In this document: positions 32,102 to 50,724 of the stretch, in pieces | Numbering within the stretch: position 1 is the stretch's first letter | Layout of the letters: each line of letters opens with the position of its first letter | Source: Nitrosopumilus sp. | GTDB lineage: Archaea; Thermoproteota; Nitrososphaeria; Nitrososphaerales; Nitrosopumilaceae | Direction of reading: 5' to 3' | DNA length: 64,000 bases | Assembly: GCA_965223425.1 (NCBI GenBank) | Contig: OZ245003.1 | Location: 448,001 to 512,000, forward strand | Made by a program: the position numbers and the translations under genes | The notes under the pieces: model-generated | The model's input: the letters and a program-made list of their open reading frames with translations, nothing else | What the model was told of the DNA's origin: nothing | The model's database searches: none

Positions 32102-32179
32102 GCCCTTGTAGTATAGCCCGGTCTAGAATTCGGCCCTGTCACGGCTGAGACGCGTGTTCAAATCCCGCCGAGGGCGCCA
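32102..32179 (+). tRNA. tRNA-Asp(GTC) with encoded CCA
   Basis: GCCCTTG/CGAGGGC acceptor stem; CTGTCAC anticodon loop; TTCAAAT T-loop. Confidence 0.93.
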
Positions 32180-32245
32180 TCCTTTTCAAGCCGGCTCCCT
32201 GCACAAAAAATTACCACTTTAAATGCAGATGGAGCTTCAAGACTG

Positions 32246-33541
32246 TTGCATCAAAAAAATCATAGTGCATCCTCTAGGAAACAAACCAGGGACGATGACA
32301 TCCACAACTATGCCGGCAAGATAAGGCGGTTAAGACGAAAGCTCCCAGAGACAAGGCAGGGAGATCTGGCAGTCAGGTTCCTTGAAAAGCTAAAGGTGTC
32401 GGGGCTAAAAGACGGAAGAGTGTGCTACTATGGCGACAGGCTGACCCTTATACTGAAATTATTTAACGGACATCCCGACGGGCCGGTCATGCTGGAAGCA
32501 GCAGAAAAGCACCACTGCGAGTCAGTGCTCTCACAAATAATATCCAACGATGAATATGGGGGCGAGACCAAAAAGGCGTATGCACTTGCCCTGATGCGCT
32601 TTGTTAACTATGCAAAGACCGGTGACGTGGGGTGCCGGGAGGACGGGTATGCAGGGGAGGTATCCTGGATTAGGCCGTCAAAGTATCTCGACAAAAACGA
32701 CGTTACCGTCAAGTCAGAGGATCTGCTCACCGCAGACGAGATAACTGCGCTTTTGGGTGCAATATCTAACAAGCGCGACCGGGCCATGTACTGGGTGCTC
32801 TTCGAGGGGGCGTTTAGGACGGGTGAGCTCCTAAAGTTCAGAATCGGGGGAGTGGACTTTAGGGACGACCATGTCGTGGTGACCACCCATGGCGGCAAGA
32901 CGGGTTCGAAGAGAATACCACTGGTGCTCTCGTTCCGACCGCTACTGGAGTGGCTTGCAGAGCATCCAAACAGAAACAATCCGGACGCATTCCTTTGGTG
33001 CTCTGATGCCCCCCAAAACAAGGCCGGAAGGATTTCATACAGTTATCTGAGACGGCACCTCAAGCAATACGCCGAGAAGGCAGGAATCAAAAAGAGGATA
33101 TGGATATACCTGATGCGGCACACGCAGCTTACACAGCTTGCCAAAAAGCTCTCAGACCAGACACTCCGGGCGTACGGCAACTGGAGTCCAAGCTCCAACA
33201 TGGCGCGCAAGTACGTCCATCTCTCCGGCAAGGACATGGATGAGGCAATACTGGGGATGCATGGAATAAGATCCAAAAATGATACGAGCGGGTCGGTCAG
33301 ACTAGAGTCCTGCCCGCGATGTGACAACAAGGACACCCCTGACTCCCAGCGGTGCTCCAAGTGCGGATACATTCTGGATCGGAAGCTCCTCCCCGATGAG
33401 GCCAAGACGTACATGGAGATGGCAGACGAGATGAGGGCTGGCCTGGACCGGATAGGGGCCCTTGAGGACAAGATAGACCTGCTGTTTGCAAGACTTCTTA
33501 CTGGGGATCCCGTGGCGCCCCGGCAGCAAGACGCTCCCTGA
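32246..33541 (+). CDS. Tyrosine recombinase/integrase with C-terminal Zn ribbon
   Basis: GAFRTGE, GKTG, YLMRHT, GNW and KYVH motifs; CPRC...CSKC. Confidence 0.95.
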   Translation: MHQKNHSASSRKQTRDDDIHNYAGKIRRLRRKLPETRQGDLAVRFLEKLKVSGLKDGRVCYYGDRLTLILKLFNGHPDGPVMLEAAEKHHCESVLSQIISNDEYGGETKKAYALALMRFVNYAKTGDVGCREDGYAGEVSWIRPSKYLDKNDVTVKSEDLLTADEITALLGAISNKRDRAMYWVLFEGAFRTGELLKFRIGGVDFRDDHVVVTTHGGKTGSKRIPLVLSFRPLLEWLAEHPNRNNPDAFLWCSDAPQNKAGRISYSYLRRHLKQYAEKAGIKKRIWIYLMRHTQLTQLAKKLSDQTLRAYGNWSPSSNMARKYVHLSGKDMDEAILGMHGIRSKNDTSGSVRLESCPRCDNKDTPDSQRCSKCGYILDRKLLPDEAKTYMEMADEMRAGLDRIGALEDKIDLLFARLLTGDPVAPRQQDAP

Positions 33542-33745
33542 GTCTTGCGACCTCGCGTCTGTACTCTAAAATGGCCTGCCGGAGCTGCTCCAAGGTGCTT
33601 TTTGAGACTTGGATGTATTCTTCCATGCATGATAATTGGGAGTTCCTTAAAAGAGGTCAATCCAGGTCTGAATCAAATATGCATCCGTCTTCAAAAACCG
33701 CGAATTTGGCAGTCGGCAGTTGACTAGGCTCCTGGCAACAGTAAT

Positions 33746-34636
33746 ATGGATCGTATACCGTACATTACAGTACTTATGTTCAAAACCGGTAACCTGCACA
33801 AGTCCAGCAGAATACTCTTGAACAAGATAATTGGCGTGATAGAAGAATACGAGGAGATGGGTTACATGCTAACCGTACGACAGATCTACTACCAGCTGGT
33901 AAGCCGTCTCATAGTCAAGAACATCAACAGCATGTACCAGCGCACCAGCAAGCTCGTCACTATTGGACGGATGCTCGGCGAGATAGACTGGGATTCAATA
34001 GTGGACAGAGCTCGGACGCCGAGGATGCCCGGCCAGTACGACAGCATGGCAAAGTTTGTCGACGCAGTCAAAAACTCGTACCGCAAGTACAGGTGGAGCG
34101 ACCAAGACCACTATGTCGAGGTCATAGTCGAAAAGGACGCGCTGGCCGGAATCTTGGAGCCCGTAACCCGCAAGTATCATGTATCGCTGCTTGCCAACAA
34201 GGGGTACTCCTCTGCTAGTGCCATACACGAGCTGGCAATGAGGATGAATTACCAGAACATAAAGGACAAAGAATGCCACATCCTGTACCTCGGGGATCAC
34301 GACCCCAGCGGGATTGACATGGTGCGCGACATCAAAGATAGGCTTGCCCACTTTGAGTGCTTTCCGGAGATGGAGAGGATTGCCCTCACCATGGATCAGA
34401 TAAAGGAGTACAAACCCCCGCCAAACCCGGCCAAGATATCCGATCCACGATCAGACAAGTACCGACAGCTGTACGGCAATGAATCGTGGGAGCTTGATGC
34501 CCTCGATCCCAAGGCGCTCGTCGACCTTGTAGAGTACAACATCACAAAATACCTGGACGTGGACAAGTACAACAGGATCATACAGTTGGAGCAAGAAGAG
34601 AGGGATCATCTGGATGCCGCTGTAGCCCGCATGTAA
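33746..34636 (+). CDS. TopoVI-A/Spo11-like Toprim protein (Mini-A-like)
   Basis: TVRQIYYQL (candidate catalytic Tyr), VEKDA, GDHDPSG and ELDAL motifs. Confidence 0.8.
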   Translation: MDRIPYITVLMFKTGNLHKSSRILLNKIIGVIEEYEEMGYMLTVRQIYYQLVSRLIVKNINSMYQRTSKLVTIGRMLGEIDWDSIVDRARTPRMPGQYDSMAKFVDAVKNSYRKYRWSDQDHYVEVIVEKDALAGILEPVTRKYHVSLLANKGYSSASAIHELAMRMNYQNIKDKECHILYLGDHDPSGIDMVRDIKDRLAHFECFPEMERIALTMDQIKEYKPPPNPAKISDPRSDKYRQLYGNESWELDALDPKALVDLVEYNITKYLDVDKYNRIIQLEQEERDHLDAAVARM

Positions 34637-34668
34637 TTTGGCCTTAAATTAAAACCGATATTATACTA

Positions 34669-35502
34669 TTGATGCTGAAAATTGGACTGGATATAGGGAC
34701 GGGTTTTGTAAAGTGCGTTTCAAACAACGGCTCTGTCAGATTCCCATCAATCTATGTCAAGAGAACACATGGTGATTGGACGGGTACCGTCACCGAGGCA
34801 GTAGGCGAAAAGGCGGCAAGGATGCTTGACAGTACAGGTGCTGCCACGGTACGCCCCATCATCCGGGGCAGGCCGGATCCCCGATATCAAAAACAGGTAG
34901 AGATGCTCATCCGGGAATCCGTCTCGCGCATACGCACTTTGGCAGGCCGTAGCGCGGACTGTGACGATACGATACGTATTGCCGTGGGACTGCCATACGA
35001 GGCGTCTGACTATCGCGAGACCATATCGAAAATGGTCAAAAAGACAACCGGTGCAGAGCGATGCGATGTGGTAGCCCAGGCAGTCGGCACCCTGGTTGAT
35101 GCAGGCAAGGTCAGCGGCATGGTCGTCTCCATAGGTCAGGGAACAAGCGAGATCATAGTCATTGACGACAACCACGTAATAGACGGCGAGAGTTCCAGAT
35201 GGGCCTCAGAATTCATCACCCGCAAGATCTCAAAGTTTGCCCACCTGGATCCAAATCTTTTGCTTGCACGCAAAGACACGTGTAAAAAATACGCAAAGGT
35301 GCTGGCAGAAAATCTGGCAACAGAGATTATAGACATGGCATCAGGATACGGCAACGCATATGATCTTGTGCTGTCCGGCGGCGGTCTGCTGATACCGGGA
35401 GTCCGAGACGAGCTTGAATCCAGACTCAAAAAATTCAAGGTCGTAATACCGGATGATCCCGTCATGAGCAACGCAACGGGTCTCTACAAACTCGTCGAAT
35501 AA
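34669..35502 (+). CDS. Actin/ParM-StbA-like ATPase
   Basis: GLDIGTGFVK, GLP, SIGQGTSE, LSGGG and NATG motifs. Confidence 0.85.
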   Translation: MMLKIGLDIGTGFVKCVSNNGSVRFPSIYVKRTHGDWTGTVTEAVGEKAARMLDSTGAATVRPIIRGRPDPRYQKQVEMLIRESVSRIRTLAGRSADCDDTIRIAVGLPYEASDYRETISKMVKKTTGAERCDVVAQAVGTLVDAGKVSGMVVSIGQGTSEIIVIDDNHVIDGESSRWASEFITRKISKFAHLDPNLLLARKDTCKKYAKVLAENLATEIIDMASGYGNAYDLVLSGGGLLIPGVRDELESRLKKFKVVIPDDPVMSNATGLYKLVE

Positions 35503-35554
35503 TTTTTTTTTTTGCCAAAAAAAGTGCCTTAAATATTATTCAAATATTGCAGAC

Positions 35555-38500
35555 ATGGGATCAAAGCGATGGCACCTTGCCAACAAGAAAAAGCCTGCAG
35601 GACAGCTGGGAGAGGCAAAGCACTTTCTGGCAGCCCCTGAAAAACTGGCTGCCTGCTCGATTACGGTTCCAATAGAGATGGACAAAAAGGCGGCCATTAA
35701 TGCTGCAGGCGGTCTTACCAGTGCAGGCATACGCAGTTTTGAGATATGGTGGGACGCCTCTGAAAAGAGACTAGAGCTGGTTTTGGTGGCAGAGAAAAGC
35801 GATCTTGCCACCTACAGGCAGGCATTTTTGAACATGTATCCAAATGCGGTATTTACCGAGCTGGAGAGTACGGAACCCGGGTGGTTTGAGCGCGAGTCCG
35901 AATACCAGATATTTGACGTGGGCACGCACCATGGACACTATTCTGCAGTATTTGATCAGGCCCGAGCCCACCAGCTGATAACCCAGGTGGCAAACACCAT
36001 CCAGCTATCCAGACAGGCCTGGATACAGTTTGTATTCAAACAGCACTCGTTTGCCCCTTTTTTGAGAAGACATGTCACGCGCCTTGATGCCAAGATTCAC
36101 GAGATCAAGCGCGGCAGGTATCTTAGCAATACCGAGATTATAATGAACCCCGACAAAAAGCCCCACGAGCACCACGAGCTTGGATACGACCTTACAAACA
36201 ACTATTCCGGCCTGCAAAAACATGCGACCCTCAAGATGCAGTCGGCCCAGCTGTTGATGAGCATCAGGGGAATTGTAAAAAGCGAGCGGGACTTGGACTT
36301 GAACTTTGATGAGATAGAGGCTCTTCCCGTAGAAAACATACACTCAGGCCACGAACATCTGACTAAATTTCGATACAAGAATAAGAATTTCTGGGACGGC
36401 GAGCCCAAAAAGACTGCCGTCAAAGTGGCAGGCAGCAAGGAAAAGCCTCCCAGGATTGGAATCTTTGAGGGCAGGCTTTTACCTGATCCCGTCAAATTTC
36501 AGGACCGTGCCATTGGCAGATATTTTGACAAGGGAATGCTCGGATACAGGGAACGCGAACCCATGCCATTTCTCATACTAAACCAGTCCGAAATTCCGCT
36601 GTTTATCCACCTGCCAGAACCCGTCACACCAAACATAGACACGACCAGGGGTGTCACCATTCCCTCAAAGCCGTCAATCAAAGACGGCTCTTGTCTTGGA
36701 TTCTTTCGACCCAAAGAGGATGGCTTTGAGTGGAAAAAGATGTGGGGAAAGATTGCCAGATCCAAGGACGTGGATGCGGCAGTCATATCTACTGCAGACC
36801 TTGCCACCCACATCTATGCCGTGGGTGCGTCAGGTTCCGGCAAGACATCCCTCATCCGGGTACTCTCAAAACATCTTGAGATTTGGAACGACTCTGATGA
36901 GTTCAAAAACGCCTTCATATATGTAGACCCCAAGGGGGATGACTCTCACAAGTTCGTAAGACAGTGTGAAAAAGAATCACTGTCCAGCGGACGCATACAT
37001 TTTCTTGATCCCCAAAAGACCCGCTTTTCGATAAACCCGCTGGAGCTGCCGACCCACTCGCCCTGGGAGAGAGAGGAGGTAGTCTCCAGATATGTCGGAT
37101 ACTTTATGAAAACCATAGAGGAATGGTACCAACAGTCGGCAAGCTATGTCCAGATGGAGAGGATATTCCGGGCACTGTTATTTTACATCTACATGAAGCA
37201 TGATGCCCCCACATTTCTTGACATTCACGATATAATCCTACGGTTACAGGAAAACGGCGTCAGGGCCATGCCGCATATCATCCAGACGTTTGGTACGCCA
37301 GAGCCAGAGATGAAGCAGGCCCTGACAAGTATTGCCACTCTAAAGGGCGAGGCATTCATACCATTACTTAACAGGGTGGAGCAGTTTGCCACAGACCCGG
37401 TTCTCAGGCGCATGTTCTCTGTGAGACACGGAACAGTCGACTTTGGAGAGATAATCAAGCCCGGTCACCAGTCCATAGTCAGGATATCGCCACTTAACAT
37501 GCCCCAGCACGTCCAGCCGCTTGCCATGCAGGCCTTTATCCTGAAACTGTGGTTTACCATACAAGAGCGGGCCAACCGGGTACCAGACGAGGCAGAACGC
37601 ACACAGGTGGTTCTGGCACTAGACGAGTTCCAGATAGTAAAGGATCTCCAGGTGCTACAGCTTATGTTGGAGCAGGCAAGGTCGCTTGGTCTCGGACTGG
37701 TACTGTCTCATCAGACCACCGAGCAGATAAGTGACAAACAGCTTGGAATAATATCGGGCAACTCTGGCACACAGCTTATCGGCAAGGTAAACGGCAAGGA
37801 CGCCTCCAGAATTGCCCAGATATGGGATCCCCAGTTTCAAAAGGAACTACAGCAGCAGTTTGCCAGCCAGGAATACTTTCACTGGACTATACGGGAAAAG
37901 GCGCCCCCTGGAAAGGAGCAGCCACCCCCCGTACAGTTCTGGCTGGCCAGACCGCCGGAGCTGACCATCGATGACCACACCTATGACGAGTTTGTCAGGG
38001 CGCAGCTGGCACGGTATGGTTCCGGGTCAATAGAGCCAAACACCATAACCCAGGCCGCAAAGAAAAGGACCCAGTGGATTGAGAATATAGAGGTAGAGTT
38101 TCCAACAAAGATAGAGTGGGATATAATGCGCCTGCTCGAAGGCGGGGAGATGAGACAGGCCCAGATTGTCTCGGCCCTACACGTACAGAACCGCGACGAG
38201 GTCGCCCCCGTCCTCAAAGAGATGGAGGAGCAGGGAAGAATAGAAAGAATTGATGCCGGGCGCACATCACCGTACCAGTTGACGGCCAAGACCCAGGCAG
38301 CATATTTTGAGTTTGATCATACACAGATAGGTACCGCCCAGGACATACCCGAGGTGGCAAGAAAGGCCATCGAGGCATATCTTGCGGAGGGACTGTTTGT
38401 CGCCATGGCGTCCCAGAGGATCAAAAAAGGCAGGGACAGAACAGACCTGATAGCCTATGATTATTCAAGAGATGTGCCCATCAGCGTTGAGATAGAGTCA

Positions 38501-38674
38501 GTCAGCGAGGTGCAGAGTCATCAGGAGCACGTCAGGTACAACATGACAAAATGGCCCAAGATGGGATTCTCAGAGTGCCATGTATGGTCCAAGAGCCAGA
38601 AAATAAGGCAGATCTGGGCAGGACTGGATGAAGAGGAGAAAAAAAGAATCTCACCCATCGTCATTTCATCCTGA
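35555..38674 (+). CDS. VirD4/VirB4/HerA-like ATPase with C-terminal wHTH and PD-(D/E)xK-like region
   Basis: GASGSGKT, VDPKGD, LALDEFQ, EQARSLGLGLVLSHQ; C-terminal RTDLIAY..SVEIES; 1039 aa. Confidence 0.85.
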   Translation: MGSKRWHLANKKKPAGQLGEAKHFLAAPEKLAACSITVPIEMDKKAAINAAGGLTSAGIRSFEIWWDASEKRLELVLVAEKSDLATYRQAFLNMYPNAVFTELESTEPGWFERESEYQIFDVGTHHGHYSAVFDQARAHQLITQVANTIQLSRQAWIQFVFKQHSFAPFLRRHVTRLDAKIHEIKRGRYLSNTEIIMNPDKKPHEHHELGYDLTNNYSGLQKHATLKMQSAQLLMSIRGIVKSERDLDLNFDEIEALPVENIHSGHEHLTKFRYKNKNFWDGEPKKTAVKVAGSKEKPPRIGIFEGRLLPDPVKFQDRAIGRYFDKGMLGYREREPMPFLILNQSEIPLFIHLPEPVTPNIDTTRGVTIPSKPSIKDGSCLGFFRPKEDGFEWKKMWGKIARSKDVDAAVISTADLATHIYAVGASGSGKTSLIRVLSKHLEIWNDSDEFKNAFIYVDPKGDDSHKFVRQCEKESLSSGRIHFLDPQKTRFSINPLELPTHSPWEREEVVSRYVGYFMKTIEEWYQQSASYVQMERIFRALLFYIYMKHDAPTFLDIHDIILRLQENGVRAMPHIIQTFGTPEPEMKQALTSIATLKGEAFIPLLNRVEQFATDPVLRRMFSVRHGTVDFGEIIKPGHQSIVRISPLNMPQHVQPLAMQAFILKLWFTIQERANRVPDEAERTQVVLALDEFQIVKDLQVLQLMLEQARSLGLGLVLSHQTTEQISDKQLGIISGNSGTQLIGKVNGKDASRIAQIWDPQFQKELQQQFASQEYFHWTIREKAPPGKEQPPPVQFWLARPPELTIDDHTYDEFVRAQLARYGSGSIEPNTITQAAKKRTQWIENIEVEFPTKIEWDIMRLLEGGEMRQAQIVSALHVQNRDEVAPVLKEMEEQGRIERIDAGRTSPYQLTAKTQAAYFEFDHTQIGTAQDIPEVARKAIEAYLAEGLFVAMASQRIKKGRDRTDLIAYDYSRDVPISVEIESVSEVQSHQEHVRYNMTKWPKMGFSECHVWSKSQKIRQIWAGLDEEEKKRISPIVISS

Positions 38675-38969
38675 GCTTTTCAAGCTGGCTTTTGTTTTCC
38701 GGTTCTTTTTTCCCTAGAGCCTCTGCTAGTTCCCCGCGATATCCCGGTTCTTCTCCGTCCAGGACGGTCGAGTCTCGGTCTGCATCTGTCAGATCCTTTT
38801 TTGTAATGTTGGACTCTGTCGGCTTTATGATGATTTTGTTTTTTGATATGGCAAACCGGACGTACTGGTTTTTTCGTATGCCCAGAGCATGGACTATTTG
38901 TAGCGGGATGGTCACAGTATATGAGCCCTGGCGGAATTGTATCTTTCTCTGTATGTCTTCTAGTTCCAT
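38661..38969 (-). CDS. AbrB/MazE/SpoVT-type DNA-binding protein
   Basis: Likely start MELEDIQRKIQ; GSYTVTIP...ALGIRKNQYVRF. Confidence 0.85.
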   Translation of the reverse strand: MELEDIQRKIQFRQGSYTVTIPLQIVHALGIRKNQYVRFAISKNKIIIKPTESNITKKDLTDADRDSTVLDGEEPGYRGELAEALGKKEPENKSQLEKLRMK

Positions 38970-38985
38970 GATTGGAAATACCTGG

Positions 38986-39169
38986 ATGCATATAAGGGCA
39001 AAAAATGCATGATGTGTACTGCCAGAATGCATGATGTGTACTGGCATGTTTTTTGGATGCATGATCTGCATGAGGGAGATGCAGAATATGCATATTGGGC
39101 AATTTTCACCATGCAGGATATGCATTGTTATGATGCAGAATATGCATATGGGTCATGCATGGTATGCAT
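38986..39169. repeat. Array of ATGCAT palindromes upstream of abrB
   Basis: Nine ATGCAT in ~185 bp plus near-matches; longer repeats AATGCATGATGTGTACTG x2 and GATGCAGAATATGCATAT x2. Confidence 0.85.
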
Positions 39170-40240: not shown

Positions 40241-41740
40241 TTATGTTCTATCTTGTAGCAATTTCAACTTCCATTCTAGAAATTTTGGATCTAGCGGATA
40301 TTTCATATCGTGTCTTAGTCTTAATTCAGGAGTGACGTGACTAACCCACGACCTGACCTGATTGGTAGAGTTCTCACTGAGCAACTCTGATATTTCGACT
40401 CCAAAGTCTTGCTCTATGGTTATGAAGCCTTTTTCAAAGGCGACATCACACAATCTACATAGCAACAGTCCATTTTGTGGGTTCATGGAATTATATGGAT
40501 CTTTCCTTCTCATTATACGATATGGCACTATGTGTGCTCCGATCACATAGTCGTGAATCCCAAAGCCACACAGAGCACATTTTTCATAATCCTTTAACAG
40601 CTCGGCTCGAAACACTTCTTGTTTTTTCCTAACATATACCGTCCGCATCTCCCCGTTGGAGTAAAAGTTTCCCTTCCGTATCTCTTTTTCAACGTGGTCA
40701 TACACCTCATTATTCATAGCTATCTCATCAAGCCGCCATATTCCCACTCCTAATTTTTTGTCGCCTTTCTCGTCCCAATCAACCAAGATCTTCTTTTCTC
40801 TCAAGCGACTGATCTCATTTACCACCGCCTTGTAGAGTGGGTTTTTCGATTTGTCAGAACCATACAAAGAAACATCTATCCCAAGTTTGCTTGCCACCAG
40901 AGCATCAACTTCGGTTTTGGTATGCCATATGGACTCGTATTGTAATTCCTGATTGTCCGATCTGCCTTCAGCGTGCCTGTGCTCTTTTTCTTTTATGAGG
41001 GGCATGGTGCGTCCTTCACTAGTGAGGCATTCCCAAACGTGCATCCGGAGACCTGCATGGTCTATGGGAAGTTTAAGGGTGGCTGTACGAAGCACGTCAT
41101 AAAATGATCCATGTTTCTCCGATTCTATTCGTTCGACATCATCCTTGTTGAGTTTTTTGAGGAATCTTATCCATTCCTGCATCACCTTGATCATCATTGC
41201 TTTGTTATGATTTTTGAAAAACTTCATTGCATCCGGATTCAGGTCAATTCCTGCATTCAAATCTACGAATTTTCTATTCCTGTTGATCTCCCTACCAATT
41301 TCATACTTAAAGAATGCCCGTATCTCCGCCGTCTGTGGTATCTTAACCCTTTGGAATCTCCACGTCACATTATGGAAACATTTTTTTGCTATTTGCCTGA
41401 TGCATTTTTTAATTTTCTCAGGCTCTGATCTTTTAACATAGCTTAACGTATTGTTATAATACGAGTCATCGAATTGATCTTTTATTATGTTCATGATCTC
41501 CAGCGTTTGGCCTGCCTGTGGAATTTGTTTTATCTTCAACTTTGTCTGTGGCCAATAATATTTGAGAAAATATTCCGCAATGGTCAAATAATCCACATGT
41601 GTATCAGTATTGTCCCTACTGTAGTCTAGTAGAAATTTTGCAAATGCGAATTTGTAGGTATTGTCCTTGTTACTGTTGACTAGAATTTCTGATAAAATTC
41701 TCTCAAATTCCTTGGCTTGAAAAGTGTCAAAAACCAACAT
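40241..41740 (-). CDS. HNH endonuclease (putative modification-dependent restriction)
   Basis: N-terminal NTYKFAF; C-terminal CALCG...GAHIVPY...NGLLLC..FEKG. Confidence 0.85.
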   Translation of the reverse strand: MLVFDTFQAKEFERILSEILVNSNKDNTYKFAFAKFLLDYSRDNTDTHVDYLTIAEYFLKYYWPQTKLKIKQIPQAGQTLEIMNIIKDQFDDSYYNNTLSYVKRSEPEKIKKCIRQIAKKCFHNVTWRFQRVKIPQTAEIRAFFKYEIGREINRNRKFVDLNAGIDLNPDAMKFFKNHNKAMMIKVMQEWIRFLKKLNKDDVERIESEKHGSFYDVLRTATLKLPIDHAGLRMHVWECLTSEGRTMPLIKEKEHRHAEGRSDNQELQYESIWHTKTEVDALVASKLGIDVSLYGSDKSKNPLYKAVVNEISRLREKKILVDWDEKGDKKLGVGIWRLDEIAMNNEVYDHVEKEIRKGNFYSNGEMRTVYVRKKQEVFRAELLKDYEKCALCGFGIHDYVIGAHIVPYRIMRRKDPYNSMNPQNGLLLCRLCDVAFEKGFITIEQDFGVEISELLSENSTNQVRSWVSHVTPELRLRHDMKYPLDPKFLEWKLKLLQDRT

Positions 41741-41802
41741 TTTACTACCATATGCAATCGTAAATATGCTTTTTTAATGCAAATGCGATCTTCTGCTCTT
41801 CG

Positions 41803-41920
41803 TATTGAAAGAAAAATTCACTTAAATCACAAATGATTCCACTATGATATATTGGACATGCCAACTAGGAGCAGTATTACAAAGGGATCCCGTGTATTAA
41901 TCGAGACAAAGGAGAACCAG
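41803..41920 (+). repeat. Direct repeat copy 2
   Basis: Matches 40095-40210. Confidence 0.9.
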
Positions 41921-42616
41921 GGAACCGGTCGCCTCACAGAGGGCACAGTTAAAGAGATGTTGACTGCTGGCAACTCACACCCACACGGAATAAAGGTACG
42001 ACTTGATGATGGACAGGTTGGACGTGTCAAGCAGGTAACTGTAATGAAAGGAACTGTAAAACCACAATTTGTGGATCTGAGCAAAAAAGAGATCCCAAAA
42101 ACAGAAGACAAGTACAACGAATTCAAGGAATTCTACCAGTATGATGAAAAAATCGAAAGGCTATCAAGCGACAAGGAAAAATCTAACGCCATAGACGGCA
42201 TAAAGCACTCCGTACAAAAGAGATTTGCCATAGCTGTATGTTCCTTTGGAAATTCTCACAAAGGAGGTTTTGTATATTTGGGAATACGGTCAGATGGCTC
42301 GATAGCAGGATTAGATAGAGATAAAAAATTTGGCGGATTTTCAGACTATAATGACTCATTTGCAAATCATATCAAAGACAGACTAGAAGATTTCCTAAAG
42401 GATCGTGTATTCATTACAAGCAAGGTAGAGATGAGATTCCGAACCATTGACGATAAGACCATCTGTATAATTCAAGTACTTCCTGCAGACCGGCCCTTGT
42501 ATCTTAATGATAAAGAAAAGGCGTTCTTTGTAAGGGGGGCCTCACCTAGAGCAGAAAAGCTAGACGTCGAAGAACAGTTCAGATACATAAAAGAGAGATT
42601 TCCACATCATCACTGA
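41852..42616 (+). CDS. YwbE/DUF2196 domain fused to Schlafen/AlbA_2 domain
   Basis: LTEGTVKEMLT..SHPHGIKVRL..GQVGRV; EDKYNEFKE, CSFGNS..GGFVYLGI. Confidence 0.85.
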   Translation: MDMPTRSSITKGSRVLIETKENQGTGRLTEGTVKEMLTAGNSHPHGIKVRLDDGQVGRVKQVTVMKGTVKPQFVDLSKKEIPKTEDKYNEFKEFYQYDEKIERLSSDKEKSNAIDGIKHSVQKRFAIAVCSFGNSHKGGFVYLGIRSDGSIAGLDRDKKFGGFSDYNDSFANHIKDRLEDFLKDRVFITSKVEMRFRTIDDKTICIIQVLPADRPLYLNDKEKAFFVRGASPRAEKLDVEEQFRYIKERFPHHH

Positions 42617-42618
42617 TT

Positions 42619-43578
42619 ATGACTGATCTTTATCACAGCCCTCTGTTTGAGAATATTCGAGATTATCTCAGTAAGTGTGGCTCAGATGAGACCATTTTTC
42701 TCTTTGTACCGTATATCAAAACAAAGATTCTTGACAAGCTACTAGATGGCATACAAAACAGAATAGTCGTTGTTACTACTTGGAACCCAAAGGACATACA
42801 GTTTGGTTCTTCAGAGCTTGCCCTGTATCCGTATTGTAAGGAGCGAAATATTGCCCTGTATGTGAGTGAAAACATGCATCTCAAAGTATATTCCATTGGA
42901 CTGGAAAGTGCGATACTTGCTACGGGTAACATATCGCATAGGGGACTATTACCTGATGGAAACTATGAGGCTGCAACCGTGCTTGAACATCTAACCAATG
43001 ATGATAGATTATTCTTTGAAAAGATACGAAGAGAGGCAAGACTGGTAGATGATGCAATGTATGACGAGCTCAAAAAATGGAGTGAAGATAACCAGATAGA
43101 TCTACCAAAACAGGTTGCGTTGGAAGATATAATATCAAGTCCAAAAAAAGATGATTTTTTAATATCTGCCCTTCCAATGACGCGCAGTGTGGATGATCTT
43201 GTGTTGGGGTATAAGAGAATGTCTGCAGGACAAGTGCCGTCTGATGATTCAGAAATAACTGCGTGTATATTTCATGATCTAGCAAATTATGGCATTGCAG
43301 TGGGACTCTCAGAATCAGAGTTTATCCAAGAGCTGTCTGTCAAGTTTTTTGCACATCCATTCATCAAAAAGATTGACAAATTTATCTCTCCAGAAGCATA
43401 TTTTGGCAGAATCAAGGAATGGGTGCAGAACAACTGTACTGATGTGCCGGTGCCAAGCAGAAGGGAGCTGACCGGAAATGTACAGGTGTTGCTAGAATGG
43501 TTTGAGAAACTAGGAAATGGAAGATATCAGATTGATATTCCAGGCACAAGATCACAAAGGATTAGAAGACTATCATGA
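42619..43578 (+). CDS. Phospholipase D-like nuclease domain protein
   Basis: VPYIK, MHLKVY, ATGNIS..G and NYE (single HxK motif). Confidence 0.8.
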   Translation: MTDLYHSPLFENIRDYLSKCGSDETIFLFVPYIKTKILDKLLDGIQNRIVVVTTWNPKDIQFGSSELALYPYCKERNIALYVSENMHLKVYSIGLESAILATGNISHRGLLPDGNYEAATVLEHLTNDDRLFFEKIRREARLVDDAMYDELKKWSEDNQIDLPKQVALEDIISSPKKDDFLISALPMTRSVDDLVLGYKRMSAGQVPSDDSEITACIFHDLANYGIAVGLSESEFIQELSVKFFAHPFIKKIDKFISPEAYFGRIKEWVQNNCTDVPVPSRRELTGNVQVLLEWFEKLGNGRYQIDIPGTRSQRIRRLS

Positions 43579-43599
43579 TCAAAAGATGTTCATTGGAAA

Positions 43600-45219
43600 T
43601 TAGGGATTTGGATCATTATATCGCCATAGATCAGCAAAGTATTCGTCTGCAAGCTCTATTGATGGGAGTATGTCCAATATTCTAATAAGTTTAAACTGTT
43701 CTGTACCTCCCATACGTGGACCGCGCATTCCACGACCGATCATCTGTTGATGAAGTACAATTGATCTAGTTGGTCTTGCTATGAACACTACATCTATGTT
43801 GGGCGCATCAAATCCAACAGAAAAAACATTAACATTGCATATGCATTTTATTTTTCCTATTTTGAATTTTGATATTACATCACGTCTATATTCTATGGGA
43901 GTTTCACCATCAACATGTGCTGCATTTCCTCCTAATGCCAAAATTATGGCACACATTAATTTTGATTGTTTTATGTTTGGAGCAAAGTATAATATTTGAT
44001 TGTTATCTGCTATTAATTTTTTCAATCGCTCGGCAATTATAAAATTTCTTCTATTGTCATTAGCAATTTTATCTAATATTTCTAATGGAAGATCATGATC
44101 ATCTGCAAATTTTCTTCTTTGTTCTTGTGTTAAGATAAATTCTCTGTCGGATCTAATAGTTTCAGGTTCACAATATGCTAGATAACCCCTTGACTGGAGA
44201 TATGATATGTTATCCATATCACCTGAATCAATTTCTATTATTTCATCATTGAAATATTCCCTCAGTTTTTTATTTTCTGGATTTTCTACTCCCCTTATGG
44301 GAGTAGCGGTAAGACCAATTATTCTAGTGCCTTTTTCTTCTAAGTGTCGTATGACGTTTTTATGGGTGCGTGCTATAACATTATGTGCTTCATCAGCCAC
44401 CACCAATTCTGGTTGTGGGAAATTATTTGAATTTAACAAATTATTTAGTTTTTGATATGTAGCTACTATGAATGCATTGGGCTTAAAATTGTCTGGAATG
44501 TTTTTCCCCCATACTCGATATACATGTAAATCAGCCTTGCCCAAATGAGACCATATCTCTTTCATCGATATGATGGCCTGTTCACACAATTCTTCACGAT
44601 CAGCAAGCCAGACTACGTGTCTCTTTTTATTATCACCGATACCATTGTTTAAAAAATTACTCACTATCTCCAAAGCTGTTCGTGTTTTACCTGCACCCGT
44701 TGGCATTTTTATGATAAAACGCATCCATGGATTTTCTATCAATCTCATCGCATCATAGAAAATTTTACTTTGATATTCTTTCAGCATTAAAAGTGGTTTA
44801 TTAGACTGTATTACAAATTCAGTACTACGATCTTCTTCAATGTTTGGCACAAGGCTTTCATCGTATCCAAATTCTTCAATGAATGCTTGTGTCTCATCAT
44901 TATGTCCCCATGTTAGCTTTGAAGCTTTTTCAATTGAATTTTTGTACAATTCTTCATTTTGAGATGGAATTGATATGCCAACTCTGTGTAAAAATCTAAT
45001 GCATTTTTTTCTATCTGCATATCTCAAAAGTTTTAGACGAAATTCTGATTTTTTGTAGGACGATATATTTAACGCATGGTGAAGTTTTCCAAGAATCTCT
45101 TTTGTTTCTATGTCGAAATTTTCATCCGATGTTATTTTGTTGAGAATTAGGTTTAATGGATCCCAGTATTCACTTAGTGCAGTTTCTAATTCACTACGTG
45201 GTAGTTTATCATTTAACAT
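43600..45219 (-). CDS. SF2 DEAH helicase (ResIII-like)
   Basis: MPTGAGKT, DEAH, LTATP, GFDAP and QMIGRGMR motifs. Confidence 0.92.
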   Translation of the reverse strand: MLNDKLPRSELETALSEYWDPLNLILNKITSDENFDIETKEILGKLHHALNISSYKKSEFRLKLLRYADRKKCIRFLHRVGISIPSQNEELYKNSIEKASKLTWGHNDETQAFIEEFGYDESLVPNIEEDRSTEFVIQSNKPLLMLKEYQSKIFYDAMRLIENPWMRFIIKMPTGAGKTRTALEIVSNFLNNGIGDNKKRHVVWLADREELCEQAIISMKEIWSHLGKADLHVYRVWGKNIPDNFKPNAFIVATYQKLNNLLNSNNFPQPELVVADEAHNVIARTHKNVIRHLEEKGTRIIGLTATPIRGVENPENKKLREYFNDEIIEIDSGDMDNISYLQSRGYLAYCEPETIRSDREFILTQEQRRKFADDHDLPLEILDKIANDNRRNFIIAERLKKLIADNNQILYFAPNIKQSKLMCAIILALGGNAAHVDGETPIEYRRDVISKFKIGKIKCICNVNVFSVGFDAPNIDVVFIARPTRSIVLHQQMIGRGMRGPRMGGTEQFKLIRILDILPSIELADEYFADLWRYNDPNP

Positions 45220-45229
45220 CTATTACATC

Positions 45230-46969
45230 CTAATTTTTGTATGATTTTCTTAAGTGATAGCTCCACTTTACAAGGTGTTCTTCTACAGTGGTTCCAACAG
45301 ACTGTGTCCTAATCAAGTCATCAAGATCGTACTGACCTTCGGCATATGCATAGATGAGTCTGTCTATGTCATTTTTGAGTTCTTGAGCAAGTTTCTTAAG
45401 TTCAGAATTTTGTGGATCAGCAGATATAGATTCTATATCTTTGATCCTTCTATATACTTCAACAAAGAATGGATGACTCATGTTATAATGAACTACTTTT
45501 TTGCCTACGTCGTCTAATACGTCAATGAACGGACCATCTGAGCGAGCCTTGTGATCGTGTATAATTTTGTACGTTGTATCTGTGTCTGTCACTTCTTTTA
45601 CATAGTCTTCCTGTTCTTTTTTATTATCAAAGAGTTCTTCTGCGTGTTTTTGTGCGTTTTCTCTATTCTCGCCTTTAGAAGCAGATGTGGGTAACGGTGG
45701 GCTAATGCCTGTAAGAGTTACTTCTATGCCAGTATGGCTTTTCAACGATCCGGTTTCAGATTCGCTCTTTTTTTGATCTTCATCATTCCAGTCTTCTTCT
45801 ATGTCTTTCCTGAACTTGTTGATTATTGAGGGTTGAATCTTTTTCTGTAATATGTCTCTTAATTCTTTGAGGGGTCTAGCACCAATTTTTATGTTCTTCA
45901 CAGAAAACCAGTGATCAAGAATTGGTTCAAAATCAATCTCACACCCCCAAAACCTATCGACAGGTTTTAGTGCTGGTGAGAATCTAGATATTGGGCCATA
46001 ATAGACTTCCCGTCCATTTCTCAATATAGAAAATCCTTCATTTTCATGTACTTTTCTTTCAATACTGTATTTGCTTCTTCCACCATAGCCTTTCAAGTGA
46101 GCGTTTTTCTGTCCCTTTCTCAAAGATCTGGGAAGGATGGATGTTCTAATTGTTATCTTGCCTTTTCTTTCACCACTACTGGGAGCGTCTACATCATGCG
46201 TCTGATGCTCAAACACATGCTCGTCTTGAAGTGTTGCACGTTCATCTGTTGGAAATTTGGGATTTTTTGTAGCATACAAAGGATCATGTGATGTAACTAA
46301 TTCGTTATTTACTCCATCATCAATGAATATTTTTCTCACATTGTCATTTTTTGTGACTTTACCATCTTTGATTATCTCTTCGCCTATGAATTTACGATAT
46401 ATTCTGCCAAGACGATGTTTGAGCTCATCGAGATCGAATTCTGTATCAATTCGTTCAATTTTACTCCAGATTACTAATGTGCCATGATCTCCTACCAGAT
46501 CTTTATATTTGTCTGGGAGATTTTTTGATTCTCTAGGATGTAGGAATGGTTCTACATCATTATCTATTCCACTATTGTCTAAAAACGTGTAGTGCCAATT
46601 TCCCTGTTTTTGTCTAGAATATACCTCGATTTTATCACATACGTTGATTGCCCCCATAGTCATTCCAACTCCAAATCGGCCTATTCCTTTTCGATCATCA
46701 TATCTATCAGAGTAACCGATAACTAGACAATTCTGGAGTTTATCAGGATTCATTCCATATCCATCGTCTCCAAATGCTATGGTTACAGGACGAGGTTTTT
46801 GTTTGCGTGGAGGCGTATTCATCTCGAATTTAATCTTGATTTCTTTTGATTCTGCTTGAATCGAATTATCTACTACTTCATAGATAGCCGAGTAAGCATC
46901 AAAGTCATTATTGCGAAGAGATTTCAGAGCCGCACCTATGAGTATGGGTGATATGCCTTCTGCGCTCAT
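45230..46969 (-). CDS. MORC/GHKL ATPase (HATPase_c_3-like)
   Basis: EVVDNSIQA, DDGYGM, GRFGVGM and HGTLVIW motifs. Confidence 0.9.
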   Translation of the reverse strand: MSAEGISPILIGAALKSLRNNDFDAYSAIYEVVDNSIQAESKEIKIKFEMNTPPRKQKPRPVTIAFGDDGYGMNPDKLQNCLVIGYSDRYDDRKGIGRFGVGMTMGAINVCDKIEVYSRQKQGNWHYTFLDNSGIDNDVEPFLHPRESKNLPDKYKDLVGDHGTLVIWSKIERIDTEFDLDELKHRLGRIYRKFIGEEIIKDGKVTKNDNVRKIFIDDGVNNELVTSHDPLYATKNPKFPTDERATLQDEHVFEHQTHDVDAPSSGERKGKITIRTSILPRSLRKGQKNAHLKGYGGRSKYSIERKVHENEGFSILRNGREVYYGPISRFSPALKPVDRFWGCEIDFEPILDHWFSVKNIKIGARPLKELRDILQKKIQPSIINKFRKDIEEDWNDEDQKKSESETGSLKSHTGIEVTLTGISPPLPTSASKGENRENAQKHAEELFDNKKEQEDYVKEVTDTDTTYKIIHDHKARSDGPFIDVLDDVGKKVVHYNMSHPFFVEVYRRIKDIESISADPQNSELKKLAQELKNDIDRLIYAYAEGQYDLDDLIRTQSVGTTVEEHLVKWSYHLRKSYKN

Positions 46970-46999
46970 TCTCTAATCTGCCATGTGCCCTTTTTTAAA

Positions 47000-47872
47000 T
47001 TATAGGTGGCAGACGGTACACGGGGTTTTCTCATCATCATCATCTAACACATCTGCCAAAACATCAACCAATGGCAAATTCTTTCTTTTTGACTTTGCTT
47101 TTTTGAGCTTTTCTTCATGCTTTTTCATTATGTCATCTCGTCTTTCCAACAGCTCTGTTAGGGTCTCTCCCTCAGACCATGTGTATTGTCTGCCTTTCAT
47201 ACCGCTTGATTTGAAATCAGCGTCTCCTGCAACACCTGCATCTTTAAGTATCTTTTGCTCTATTGCAACTGCGCGTTTGAACAAATCAGGATGATTGTCT
47301 GCAAGACCAACCCACTCTGCTTTGCGTTGAAAGAAGCAAAAATAACAACCAGAGCGTGTCCTCCACTTGTAATAATCAGGCAGGTTGATTCCTGCATCTT
47401 CTAGTATCTTTATGACACCGGTGTGATCAATGTCATCATCGATGAATGGAAATATTGTCTTGATATTTGGCTTGGTGGATACATACCCGGTTCTGCTTTT
47501 TTCATCAGAGCGAATTGCCACGTATGATGTTACTTCAGCGTCTCCAATCCAGTCCTCAAGTGGCTTTATCTTCAACATACTAGTACACCACCTCATCTGT
47601 GGAGATGGAAGTGTACCACGAAATACCTCAAAATAATGATCAAAACTTCGAGTAGAGTTTAGTTTTATGATTTTTTTGCCTAGGACGACTTCAAGCTTTG
47701 CAAGATAAGCATAGGTCTCTGGCAGTTCTGCACCTGTATCGCAGAAAAAATACTCCATGTCTGGAACTTTATCTCGCATGTATACAGCAAGGGCACTAGA
47801 ATCTTTACCTCCAGATATTCCGCAAACGTGTCTTGGCAATAACAATTGAAAAGATTCTAAGAATATAATCAT
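47000..47872 (-). CDS. PAPS-reductase family protein, SspD/DndC-like
   Basis: SGGKDS, DTGAELPE, RWCT..LKIKP and RSGCYFCFFQ motifs. Confidence 0.85.
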   Translation of the reverse strand: MIIFLESFQLLLPRHVCGISGGKDSSALAVYMRDKVPDMEYFFCDTGAELPETYAYLAKLEVVLGKKIIKLNSTRSFDHYFEVFRGTLPSPQMRWCTSMLKIKPLEDWIGDAEVTSYVAIRSDEKSRTGYVSTKPNIKTIFPFIDDDIDHTGVIKILEDAGINLPDYYKWRTRSGCYFCFFQRKAEWVGLADNHPDLFKRAVAIEQKILKDAGVAGDADFKSSGMKGRQYTWSEGETLTELLERRDDIMKKHEEKLKKAKSKRKNLPLVDVLADVLDDDDEKTPCTVCHL

Positions 47873-48035
47873 TATTATCTAAATTCCAAATAAAAGGTAG
47901 ATCCGGCGTGGAATTTCGGAGTTGCAAGCATGGTGCCTAAAACTCTCAGATGGGTATTATTCACGTCTAAATTTAGTCTTGAGAAAAGTTATCGAACATA
48001 CCATATTGAAGACAAACCTTTAAACTTGAAAATAG

Positions 48036-49817: not shown

Positions 49818-49825
49818 TCATGTGA

Positions 49826-49993
49826 TCATTTTATCTTAGATGCTAGCTCATCAAATTCTTTTTTGGAGACTGTCAGACAGAACAGTACTTTGTTGGGTTT
49901 TTTTGCATTTTTTATCATAGGGTAGAATTTTATGGTGTACATGTTGTCCTTTTTTATAATCTCGTATGGCCTCTCGCCTATCTTATTTCGCAC
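49826..49993 (-). CDS. Small hypothetical protein or remnant
   Basis: GTG-started 55-codon frame VRNKIGERPYEIIKKDNMYTIKFYP... Confidence 0.35.
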   Translation of the reverse strand: MRNKIGERPYEIIKKDNMYTIKFYPMIKNAKKPNKVLFCLTVSKKEFDELASKIK

Positions 49994-50157
49994 TTGATGT
50001 CTTAACTGGCATGTGATTTTATAGTTTTACAATAGACAGGCGAATTCGGCCTTGAATATTATTATACTAGTTTATCGTACTATAACTTACCGTATCCGAA
50101 ACCTCTGGACTATCCGATAAAGATGGGGAATCGGGGGCATGATTGTGGATACGGCTT

Positions 50158-50721: not shown

Positions 50722-50724
50722 GTT

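What the first reader, a model, noticed from the sequence alone, without database searches (positions are those of the whole stretch)
32246..38969. Minimal archaeal integrative element backbone: integrase + TopoVI-A-like Toprim + actin-like ATPase + VirD4/HerA-nuclease fusion + AbrB
Seen: four co-oriented intact genes, visibly more GC-rich than the host, plus a convergent abrB. No Rep, primase, MCM, capsid or multi-TM mating-pair genes are recognisable in the 24.6-kb element. The Toprim protein keeps both the RxxYY tyrosine motif and DxD but has no adjacent B subunit. The ATPase ends in a wHTH plus a D..E-x-E nuclease-like segment. Inference: an unconventional mobilisation or maintenance module in which the Toprim protein or fused nuclease acts as relaxase, the ATPase as DNA pump and the actin homolog in segregation.
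Basis: partly seen in the sequence, partly recalled or inferred. Interest (0 to 1): 0.7.

Follow-up and report, generated by a model that had tools for sequence, protein, structure and literature searches.

The report
Pore-less archaeal integrative element backbone
A 24.6-kb element inserted in a tRNA gene of an ammonia-oxidising archaeon keeps only an integrase, a topoisomerase-like Mini-A protein, an actin-like partition set and one conjugation ATPase, and carries anti-virus defence genes as cargo.

Summary
Window 32246-38969 has four co-oriented intact genes plus a convergent abrB. They sit at the left end of a 24.57-kb element in tRNA-Asp, bounded by att repeats at 32163 and 56730. Backbone GC is 0.51 against 0.415 for the genome.

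The genes are:
- a tyrosine integrase;
- a Mini-A type IIB topoisomerase-like protein with all three published motifs;
- a 277-aa actin-fold ATPase;
- the 1039-aa "TraG" ATPase of thaumarchaeal ICEs and Sulfolobus conjugative plasmids;
- a 102-aa AbrB protein preceded by an iteron array.

The same five genes, also in tRNA-Asp, recur in another genus at 65-81% identity (abrB 74% over its 102-aa CDS), with dN/dS 0.06-0.16 and different cargo.

Actin-TraG-AbrB is the end module of full Nitrosopumilaceae ICEs. This element lacks every pore gene. Four such pore-less elements form their own TraG clade, so this is a lineage and not a fresh deletion.

Actin + AbrB + iterons reads as a ParMRC-like partition cassette. 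Mini-A is not a regular TraG partner (2 of 31 Mini-A loci), but it often sits beside the actin gene (15 of 31). The relaxase idea is unsupported.

The TraG N-domain folds like the VirB4 N-domain. The C-terminal nuclease fold is plausible but unproven. Verdict: new variant of known kinds, moderate interest.

The parts
32102..32179 (+). tRNA-Asp (GTC), the integration target
   Evidence: ARAGORN; Rfam tRNA. The G147 and G714 relatives also sit at tRNA-Asp.
32163..32186 (+). attL direct repeat (3' end of tRNA-Asp)
   Evidence: Repeat family D4. The 17-nt core occurs twice in the window against 0.02 expected. A dominant contig in run X9 stops matching at 32180.
32246..33541 (+). Tyrosine integrase with C-terminal zinc ribbon (431 aa)
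   Evidence: Phage_integrase 7e-17; XerA-like 8.5e-18, below cut-off. 69% identical in G147 and 63% in G714.
33746..34636 (+). Mini-A type IIB topoisomerase-like protein (296 aa)
   Evidence: phrog_6247 2e-91 over its full length. 84 phage records at 32-45% identity. Motifs RQIYYQ, E129, DHDPSG and WELDAL are invariant in 11 sequences.
34669..35502 (+). Actin-fold (ParM/MreB-like) ATPase (277 aa)
   Evidence: MreB_Mbl 6.5e-14, ALP_N. The family profile hits MreB at 1e-10, plus MamK, Arp2 and ParM. Phosphate and adenosine motifs are invariant in 48 homologues.
35555..38674 (+). TraG-like conjugation ATPase (1039 aa): VirB4-like N-domain (1-~365), P-loop ATPase (Walker A at 424-431), wHTH (~847-919), PD-(D/E)xK-like end (~930-1039)
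38661..38969 (-). AbrB/SpoVT-type DNA-binding protein (102 aa) with conserved C-terminal tail LEKLRMK
   Evidence: MazE_antitoxin/AbrB 9.8e-5. The 13-sequence alignment fixes the start at M53 and shows the conserved tail.
39004..39169 (.). Iteron array upstream of abrB: two 21-nt repeats, then five ATGCA-N5-TGCAT palindromes spaced 22/32/22/22 nt (candidate centromere/operator)
   Evidence: All 5 matches in the 64-kb window lie here against 0.23 expected. Element-specific arrays lie upstream of abrB in 6 of 8 other loci.
40241..56194 (.). Cargo defence island: HNH, DUF2196-AlbA_2, PLD-like, helicase, MORC-like GHKL ATPase, SspD, GmrSD/SspE-like, 187-aa unknown, SspC, SspB, SspA
   Evidence: Pfam. 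PADLOC: SspA 1e-133, SspB 3.5e-96, SspC 7e-302, SspD 9.5e-110.
56730..56753 (+). attR direct repeat
56754..58620 (.). 1.87-kb extra insert between attR and the host flank, with an IS630-type HTH ORF (57140-57703)
   Evidence: Empty-site comparison with L088; HTH_33/HTH_32.

Best explanation
This is a pore-less integrative element of Nitrosopumilaceae, inserted by its tyrosine integrase into tRNA-Asp. Its backbone combines three things:
1. A partition-type cassette: an actin-fold ATPase, a small AbrB-fold DNA-binding protein, and an iteron array in front of abrB. I read this as working like ParM/ParR/parC on the excised circle.
2. The TraG-type ATPase of archaeal conjugation systems: VirB4-like N-domain, P-loop motor, then a wHTH and a nuclease-like end that would bind or process the element's DNA.
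3. A Mini-A protein with intact cleavage residues.

The element has no pore or pilus genes, so it cannot build a mating channel. It most likely persists as an integrated defence-gene carrier. It may move by excision followed by use of a resident ICE's pore, in the way bacterial mobilisable elements with their own coupling ATPase do.

Shown: gene identities, att sites, empty site, synteny, purifying selection, the separate lineage, and the iteron arrays. Inferred: partition function, transfer in trans, and any role for Mini-A. For Mini-A I favour topological or resolution work on the excised circle.
For: - Identities.
- att sites and empty site.
- G147 has the same five genes in the same order in tRNA-Asp, on a 19.7-kb element with DISARM-like cargo. 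dN/dS is 0.06-0.16 for all five genes.
- Run X5 holds the backbone 32149-39544 at about 98-99.5% identity, then diverges at 39544, so the same backbone carries other cargo.
- Full ICEs (G000 C1:882-906 kb, L033-L035) end in prepilin peptidase - actin - TraG - AbrB and carry TFIIB and VirB4/TrbE-like genes. The window element has none of these.
- Other pore-less elements: G717:C39 (tRNA-Ser - int - actin - TraG - AbrB plus Type ISP cargo) and G734.
- The four pore-less TraGs form a clade (support 0.988) apart from the ICE copies. ICE-linked actins form their own clade (91/98).
- Partition reading: the ATPase motifs are invariant. AbrB has a conserved C-terminal tail. Five of five ATGCA-N5-TGCAT palindromes lie upstream of abrB against 0.23 expected. 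Arrays occur in 6 of 8 other loci.
- Helpers: the G000 TrbE-like query (the C1:904525-906342 gene) finds homologues in G734 (4 matches) and G717 (6 matches); G000's own two VirB4/TrbE-like genes, at C1:904-906 kb and 1677 kb, come.
- Sulfolobus traG is needed for plasmid transfer (PMC9899855, passages).
Against: - No excised circle or attP junction was seen. Only assembled contigs were available.
- G147 (99% complete, one contig) and G714 show no VirB4/TrbE-like gene with the G000 query at E<=1e-5, so a helper is not always present.
- The actin-AbrB interaction was not tested because the complex job was never accepted.
- AbrB is not a ParR homologue, and an iteron array in front of its own gene could be a plain operator.
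- Two of 8 abrB loci show no array, and one of the 6 counted is weak.
- Of 99 actin loci, only 17 lie within 4 kb of TraG and 15 within 3.5 kb of Mini-A, so the modules recombine freely.
- No replication gene was found, so a partition system may have little to act on unless host replication is used.
Confidence: 0.55

Rival explanations
1. One reading: Mini-A (or the fused nuclease-like domain) is the relaxase-like enzyme. It nicks or cuts the element and stays covalently bound, and TraG pumps the DNA. This would be a self-sufficient DNA-processing and export module.
For: - Mini-A keeps the catalytic Tyr and metal site.
- No relaxase is known for thaumarchaeal ICEs or Sulfolobus plasmids (PMC6563490, section 12).
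- Mini-A lies two genes upstream of TraG here and in G147.
- In G203, G659 and G681, a ~405-440-aa protein convergent to Mini-A carries a wHTH plus a domain homologous to the TraG C-terminus (blastp 2.5e-7 to 5.7e-5). Mini-A and this domain are therefore linked in two architectures.
Against: - Only 2 of 31 Mini-A loci lie within 6 kb of TraG.
- 15 of 17 actin-TraG loci lack Mini-A, including the full ICE at G000 C1:882-906 kb and the pore-less G717 and G734 elements (the other full ICEs seen, L033-L035, also show no Mini-A).
- 84 phage records carry Mini-A, and none matches TraG or the actin gene.
- Without a pore the module cannot export DNA on its own.
Confidence: 0.15
2. Decaying remnant: a standard ICE that lost its pore genes by deletion. 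The remaining genes would be on their way to pseudogenes and have no joint function.
For: - Actin-TraG-AbrB is shared with full ICEs.
- The genome holds degraded copies: a TraG fragment with a stop at C1:2466247 and an actin fragment at 2464772.
- IS elements interrupt related ICEs.
Against: - All five genes are intact and under purifying selection against a homologue in another genus.
- Pore-less elements form a clade across two genera and two tRNA targets.
- att repeats match at 23 of 24 positions.
Confidence: 0.12
3. Defence module: Mini-A (a JetD/MksG-like Toprim nuclease), the actin-like ATPase and the large ATPase form an anti-plasmid or anti-virus system next to an integrase, like the rest of the island.
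For: - Weak JetD matches (PADLOC 0.0015; Pfam JetD_C/DUF2399 at 0.03) and mad8 at 2.3e-13 on the ATPase core.
- In G203 Mini-A sits beside an OLD-family ATPase-nuclease and a KAP NTPase, and the weaker Mini-A-like match (28-33% identity) in G141 sits beside an AAA_21/AAA_15 ATPase and a PLD-like gene.
- The cargo is all defence.
Against: - The ATPase is orthologous to ICE and plasmid TraG, and the Sulfolobus homologue is required for conjugation.
- The backbone has the GC of a separate unit and stays constant while the defence cargo changes.
- The JetD matches are far below any threshold.
Confidence: 0.1
4. Cryptic provirus, since Mini-A was described as a virus-borne protein.
For: - Mini-A was reported from viruses and proviruses (PMC7671362, passages).
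- There are 84 phage records with homologues.
Against: - No capsid, portal, terminase or tail family appears in any scanned ORF of the element.
- The neighbours are conjugation-type and partition-type genes.
Confidence: 0.04

Closest known systems
Thaumarchaeal integrative-conjugative elements (Krupovic et al. 2019, PMC6563490; section 12 read in full)
   Same: Integration at a tRNA by a tyrosine integrase; a TraG/VirD4-type ATPase; no relaxase; defence or other cargo. Full ICEs of this family in the same genome and in relatives share actin-TraG-AbrB.
   Different: No VirB4/TrbE-like second ATPase, VirB6-like protein, prepilin peptidase, TFIIB or ParB-like genes. Size is 24.6 kb against a reported median of 64 kb. 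The words actin, MreB and Toprim do not occur in that paper's main text. Its supplementary annotation was not seen and may list such genes.
TraG of Sulfolobus pNOB8-type conjugative plasmids
   Same: tblastn matches at 22-25% identity cover residues ~337-1037, including the wHTH and the last domain. The Sulfolobus gene is needed for transfer (PMC9899855, passages).
   Different: The N-terminal 340 residues are not matched by sequence. Here they fold like the VirB4 N-domain. That paper does not mention a nuclease domain (0 occurrences).
Mini-A type IIB topoisomerase-like proteins (Takahashi et al. 2019, PMC7671362; passages)
   Same: About 300 aa, RxxYY, E plus DxDxxG, the xWELDAL box, and no B subunit next to it.
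   Different: Here it sits in a non-viral integrative element beside an actin-like ATPase. That pairing recurs in 15 of 31 Mini-A loci of the family sample. It is not found in phages: there is no actin-like match in 50,697 records.
Type II (ParMRC) plasmid partition, and the ParM-type system of SXT/R391 ICEs (PMC4489591; search listing and start of abstract only)
   Same: Actin-fold ATPase, a small DNA-binding protein, and an array of short repeats next to the genes, on an element that excises as a circle.
   Different: The adaptor has an AbrB fold and is not a ParR-type protein. It is convergent and can be separated from the ATPase by a 3-kb conjugation gene. The ATPase is short (about 275 aa). 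No function has been tested.
Bacterial integrative mobilisable elements that encode their own coupling ATPase
   Same: Integrase plus a transfer ATPase without a pore, and reliance on a co-resident conjugative element.
   Different: Archaeal, no relaxase, and the ATPase has VirB4-like architecture with a DNA-binding/nuclease-like end. Dependence on a helper is only inferred.

Membership tests
Mini-A (type IIB topoisomerase A-like) | Catalytic tyrosine in an RxxY/FY context (5Y-CAP) | tested here: met
   RQIYYQ at 45-50. R45 and Y49 are invariant in 11 sequences including 2 phage ones.
Mini-A (type IIB topoisomerase A-like) | Toprim metal site: E followed by DxDxxG | tested here: met
   E129 and DHDPSG at 184-189, invariant.
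Mini-A (type IIB topoisomerase A-like) | C-terminal T2BI box of Mini-A type (xWELDAL) | tested here: met
   SWELDAL at 247-253. The motif is as given in PMC7671362.
Mini-A (type IIB topoisomerase A-like) | About 300 aa with no adjacent GHKL B subunit | tested here: met
   296 aa. The neighbours are an integrase and an actin-like ATPase. The only GHKL gene of the element lies about 10.6 kb away in the cargo.
Mini-A (type IIB topoisomerase A-like) | Encoded by a virus or provirus (reported context, not a sequence feature) | tested here: not met
   No viral structural family was found in the element.
VirD4/TraG type IV coupling protein | TrwB/TraG-type P-loop domain | tested here: met
   TrwB_AAD_bind 23.9 bits (cut-off 20.5), TraG-D_C 19.2 bits (below 22), Walker A GASGSGKT at 424.
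VirD4/TraG type IV coupling protein | N-terminal membrane anchor | tested here: not met
   Residues 1-365 form a soluble alpha/beta domain that matches the VirB4 N-domain. The hydropathy scan finds no TM pair.
VirB4 conjugation ATPase | VirB4-type N-terminal domain followed by the ATPase domain | tested here: met
VirB4 conjugation ATPase | Encoded with VirB3/VirB6-type membrane partners | tested here: not met
   None in this element. They are present in full ICEs elsewhere.
Integrative-conjugative element | Integrase with att sites at a tRNA | tested here: met
Integrative-conjugative element | Own mating-pore gene set | tested here: not met
   No AAA_10 or P-loop_TraG match lies inside the element. 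The genome's only matches are at C1:904-906 kb and 1677 kb.
ParMRC-type partition system | Actin-fold ATPase with nucleotide-binding motifs | tested here: met
   DIGTG, SIGQGT and SGGG motifs are invariant in 48 homologues. Profile hits to MreB, MamK and ParM.
ParMRC-type partition system | ParR-family adaptor | tested here: not met
   The neighbouring small DNA-binding protein has an AbrB/SpoVT fold by Pfam. It is an analogue at best.
ParMRC-type partition system | Centromere of iterated repeats beside the genes | tested here: met
ParMRC-type partition system | Adaptor binds the ATPase; filament formation | not tested
   The complex prediction was never accepted because the queue was full. 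Needs bench work.
PD-(D/E)xK nuclease (TraG C-terminus) | alpha-beta-beta-beta-alpha-beta core with a significant structural match | tested here: inconclusive
   The secondary structure fits. The hit lists were filled by the wHTH. The ESM Atlas's nearest named clusters are AHJR-like, PDDEXK_11, PDDEXK_3 and Replic_Relax at 0.82-0.84, which are leads only.
PD-(D/E)xK nuclease (TraG C-terminus) | Catalytic D...(D/E)xK | tested here: inconclusive
   D964, E979 and E981 are invariant, but the third position is E, not K. K999 on the next helix is invariant. There is no Pfam or PDB sequence match.

The most novel reading that the evidence does not exclude
Mini-A, the actin-like ATPase, the AbrB protein with its iterons, and the wHTH/nuclease-like domain (fused to TraG or free-standing) form a previously unrecognised maintenance system of archaeal integrative elements. 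In this reading Mini-A is the DNA-breaking enzyme that resolves or unlinks the excised circle. It would be aimed by the wHTH/nuclease-like domain, and the actin filament would then segregate the circle. This would give Mini-A its first partners and its first non-viral role, both open since its description.
Probability: 0.2. Interest if true: 0.7.

Novelty: new variant of a known kind. Interest (0 to 1): 0.55.

Why it matters
Archaeal conjugation has no known relaxase, and its parts are barely characterised. This finding adds four things.

1. It defines a compact, conserved, pore-less backbone that carries defence islands between Nitrosopumilaceae genomes.
2. It shows that the archaeal "TraG" has a VirB4-like N-domain plus a DNA-binding and possibly nucleolytic end.
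3. It points to an actin/AbrB/iteron cassette as the likely partition system of these elements.
4. It gives Mini-A, an orphan topoisomerase-like family, a repeated genomic partner (the actin-like ATPase, 15 of 31 loci) and a second linked domain. Its function thereby becomes testable with a few purified proteins.

My literature searches found none of these points in print. Subscription journals and supplementary tables were not covered.

Tried and rejected
- Complex prediction of the actin-like protein (alignment A6) with AbrB (A5). No result exists.
- Nuclease fold. Foldseek and VIA-align on the 250-residue C-terminal model returned mainly wHTH proteins and wHTH-bearing O-methyltransferases. 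One low-TM hit was to Cdn1 (rank 3, TMq 0.30). A profile against PDB sequences and Pfam scans of 29 members gave nothing significant.
- Mini-A against PDB sequences: no match at E<=1.
- Pfam Top6A/Spo11 models did not hit Mini-A at E<=0.1.
- TraG and the actin-like protein against phages: no match. The actin-like protein against plasmids: no match.
- Rfam on 31500-41000: only the two tRNAs.
- Excision evidence. All 15 runs listed are assembled contigs and no RNA holder is listed. No attP or attB joint could be seen because the stretch limit excludes attR.
- Earlier scan notes: nothing found.
- Actin-like ATPase as a universal 'Mini-B': rejected, because phage Mini-A genes have no such neighbour.
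- The Pfam P-loop_TraG model was too weak to find VirB4/TrbE-like genes in relatives, so a protein query replaced it.

Full report
**1. What is there**

The window holds a 24,567-nt element between direct repeats at 32163-32186 and 56730-56753. The 17-nt core occurs exactly twice against 0.02 expected. The left repeat is the 3' end of tRNA-Asp, 32102-32179.

A same-genus genome (G323, locus L088) has the same methyltransferase, tRNA-Lys and tRNA-Asp flank, followed at once by the homologue of window 58621 onward. The inserted DNA is therefore 32180-58620. That is the element plus a 1.87-kb piece with an IS630-type HTH ORF.

The backbone 32246-38969 has GC 0.51. The genome is 0.415, the cargo 0.397 and the flanks 0.36-0.37. 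Record titles of close relatives place the host in Nitrosopumilaceae.

**2. The genes**

*Integrase (32246-33541).* Phage_integrase 7e-17, plus a zinc ribbon.

*Mini-A (33746-34636).* It matches phrog_6247 over its full length at 2e-91 and 84 phage records at 32-45% identity. It carries the three marks that Takahashi et al. give for Mini-A (PMC7671362, passages): RQIYYQ, E129 with DHDPSG, and SWELDAL. These are invariant in an 11-sequence alignment that includes two phage proteins.

*Actin-fold ATPase (34669-35502).* MreB_Mbl 6.5e-14. The family profile hits MreB at 1e-10, and also MamK, Arp2 and ParM. It belongs to a family of 133 proteins of about 275 aa. All source names that were given are Nitrosopumilales or Thaumarchaeota. 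Nucleotide-binding motifs are invariant.

*Large ATPase (35555-38674, 1039 aa).*
- Its best plasmid matches are the TraG proteins of Sulfolobus conjugative plasmids, covering residues ~337-1037.
- Walker A is at 424.
- The final ~110 residues have alpha-beta-beta-beta-alpha-beta order with invariant D964, S977, E979, E981, H989, N996 and K999.
- That last domain has no Pfam or PDB sequence match.
- The ESM Atlas's nearest named clusters are AHJR-like, PDDEXK_11, PDDEXK_3 and Replic_Relax at 0.82-0.84, which the tool rates as leads only.
- The nuclease reading is therefore plausible but not shown.

*abrB.* Alignment of 13 homologues puts its start at M53 of the long ORF. This gives a 102-aa protein (38661-38969, - strand) with an AbrB domain, an acidic linker and a conserved tail S-x-LEKLRMK.

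*Iteron array.* Directly upstream of abrB lie two 21-nt repeats and five ATGCA-N5-TGCAT palindromes spaced 22/32/22/22 nt. These are the only five matches in 64 kb, against 0.23 expected.

**3. Cargo**

The remaining 16 kb holds SspA, SspB, SspC and SspD (PADLOC 1e-133, 3.5e-96, 7e-302, 9.5e-110) and a GmrSD/SspE-like nuclease. It also holds an HNH nuclease, a DUF2196-AlbA_2 protein, a PLD-like protein, a helicase and a MORC-like GHKL ATPase.

No replication, capsid or pore family was found. No real ORF has two or more TM-like segments.

**4. Relatives**

*Full synteny.* G147, from another genus, has int (69%), Mini-A (65%), actin (75%), TraG (81%) and AbrB (51% over the 154-aa ORF; 74% over the 102-aa CDS) in the same order. 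It is also at tRNA-Asp, on a 19.7-kb element with DISARM-like, nSTAND and HEPN cargo. dN/dS against the window is 0.13, 0.12, 0.06, 0.07 and 0.16, with dS near saturation.

*Same backbone, other cargo.* Contigs of run X5 carry the backbone 32149-39544 at about 98-99.5% identity and then diverge at 39544.

*Full ICEs.* In the window's own genome there are two more full-length TraG copies at 70% identity, plus fragments. The copy at C1:882-906 kb lies in a full ICE-like cluster, in this order: VirB4/TrbE-like ATPase, TFIIB-like, prepilin peptidase, actin, TraG, convergent AbrB, and DndA-D cargo. Loci L033-L035 show the same order. This fits the description of thaumarchaeal ICEs (PMC6563490, section 12).

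*Other pore-less elements.* G717:C39 has tRNA-Ser - int - two small ORFs - actin - TraG - AbrB with Type ISP cargo. G734 has two inverted actin-TraG-AbrB copies around a Gabija/methylase island.

*Trees.* In a 17-sequence FastTree of TraG, the four pore-less copies form a clade (0.988) apart from the ICE copies. In a 15-sequence IQ-TREE of the actin genes, the ICE-linked ones form their own clade (91/98), and the window and G147 genes fall outside it. Both trees use only the loci I had fetched.

**5. Counts in 401 sampled family genomes**

- TraG occurs in 52 genomes.
- Mini-A occurs in 27 genomes.
- The actin-like gene occurs in 60 genomes.

For locus-level adjacency I copied rows by hand, merged or dropped fragments, and left out three unpublished genomes:
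- 31 Mini-A loci: 15 have an actin-like gene within 3.5 kb, and 2 (G000, G147) have TraG within 6 kb.
- 99 actin loci: 17 have TraG within 4 kb, and 15 have Mini-A.
- 56 TraG loci: 17 have actin within 4 kb.

Mini-A-actin-AbrB occurs without TraG in G714, G741, G690 and G617. In G714 the integrase is 63% identical to the window's and again follows tRNA-Asp.

In G203, G659 and G681, a 405-440-aa protein convergent to Mini-A ends in a wHTH plus a domain homologous to the TraG C-terminus.

Iteron arrays upstream of abrB, different in sequence but mostly of 22-nt or 32-nt period, occur in 6 of 8 other loci tested. One of the six is weak, and two loci have none.

**6. Reading**

The constant unit is the actin-like ATPase, AbrB and the iterons. 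I read it as a ParMRC-like partition cassette with an AbrB-fold adaptor. TraG and Mini-A join it in different combinations, and the window and G147 have both.

The element lacks a pore, so self-transfer is excluded. Transfer through a resident ICE is possible. G000, G734 and G717 hold VirB4/TrbE-like genes elsewhere. G147 and G714 show none with this query.

Mini-A as relaxase is not supported by its distribution. Its link to the actin gene and to the wHTH/nuclease-like domain is the most novel lead.

No paper seen describes any activity for Mini-A. PMC8185306 states that none from archaea has been characterised (passages). For the later literature I saw only search listings.

**7. Limits**

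- Gene calls outside the window are my own longest-ORF picks.
- Structure claims rest on predicted models.
- The adjacency counts depend on contig length.
- No raw reads were available.
- The protein-complex test could not be run.

Noticed in passing
window 47000-56194: A complete SspABCD phosphorothioation set (SspD 47000-47872, SspC 50725-54069, SspB 54066-55019, SspA 55019-56194) with a GmrSD/SspE-like nuclease at 48036-49817. An archaeal copy of a system named from bacteria.
   Followed up: partly
window 40102-40210 and 41812-41920: 109-nt direct repeats (90% identical) flank the HNH nuclease gene 40241-41740. Contigs of runs X1 and X3 show an alternative joint at 40102 (goes back 899 nt, with 811 other letters between).
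   Followed up: no
window 39925-40056 (+): A 43-aa ORF with two CxxC pairs (zinc-ribbon-like) in the 1.27-kb spacer between abrB and the cargo. It lies beyond the point (39544) where the X5 variant diverges.
   Followed up: no
window 43600-46969 (-): A MORC-like GHKL ATPase (HATPase_c_3, 579 aa) next to a ResIII/DEAD helicase (PbeA-like by PADLOC). A similar GHKL gene follows AbrB in G734 (L109:18296-19852).
   Followed up: no
G000:C1:874000-906400 (loci L007, L008): A second, full ICE-like element in the same genome with DndA-D cargo, interrupted by an IS (DDE_Tnp_1). A third TraG copy lies at C1:1897138 without an actin gene, and a degraded actin/TraG pair lies at C1:2464772-2466477.
   Followed up: partly
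L013:13-1335, L101:1-1302, L098:2556-3776: Proteins of 405-440 aa with a hydrophobic N-terminus, a long helical/acidic middle, a wHTH, and a last domain homologous to the TraG C-terminus. Each is convergent to a Mini-A gene.
   Followed up: partly
L109/L110 (G734:C2:1918816-1945421): Two inverted copies of actin-TraG-AbrB (72-73% identical to the window's TraG) bracket about 20 kb holding a GajA/GajB-like pair, methylases, a large surface protein and an IS630 transposase.
   Followed up: no
window 11000-17000: A GC-rich stretch (0.42-0.54, peak at 16001-17000) well outside the element. Not examined.
   Followed up: no
whole genome G000: At 2.64 Mb this genome is larger than most same-genus genomes in the samples (mostly 1.4-2.2 Mb), and it holds at least four TraG/actin loci. 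Much of the excess may be mobile DNA.
   Followed up: no
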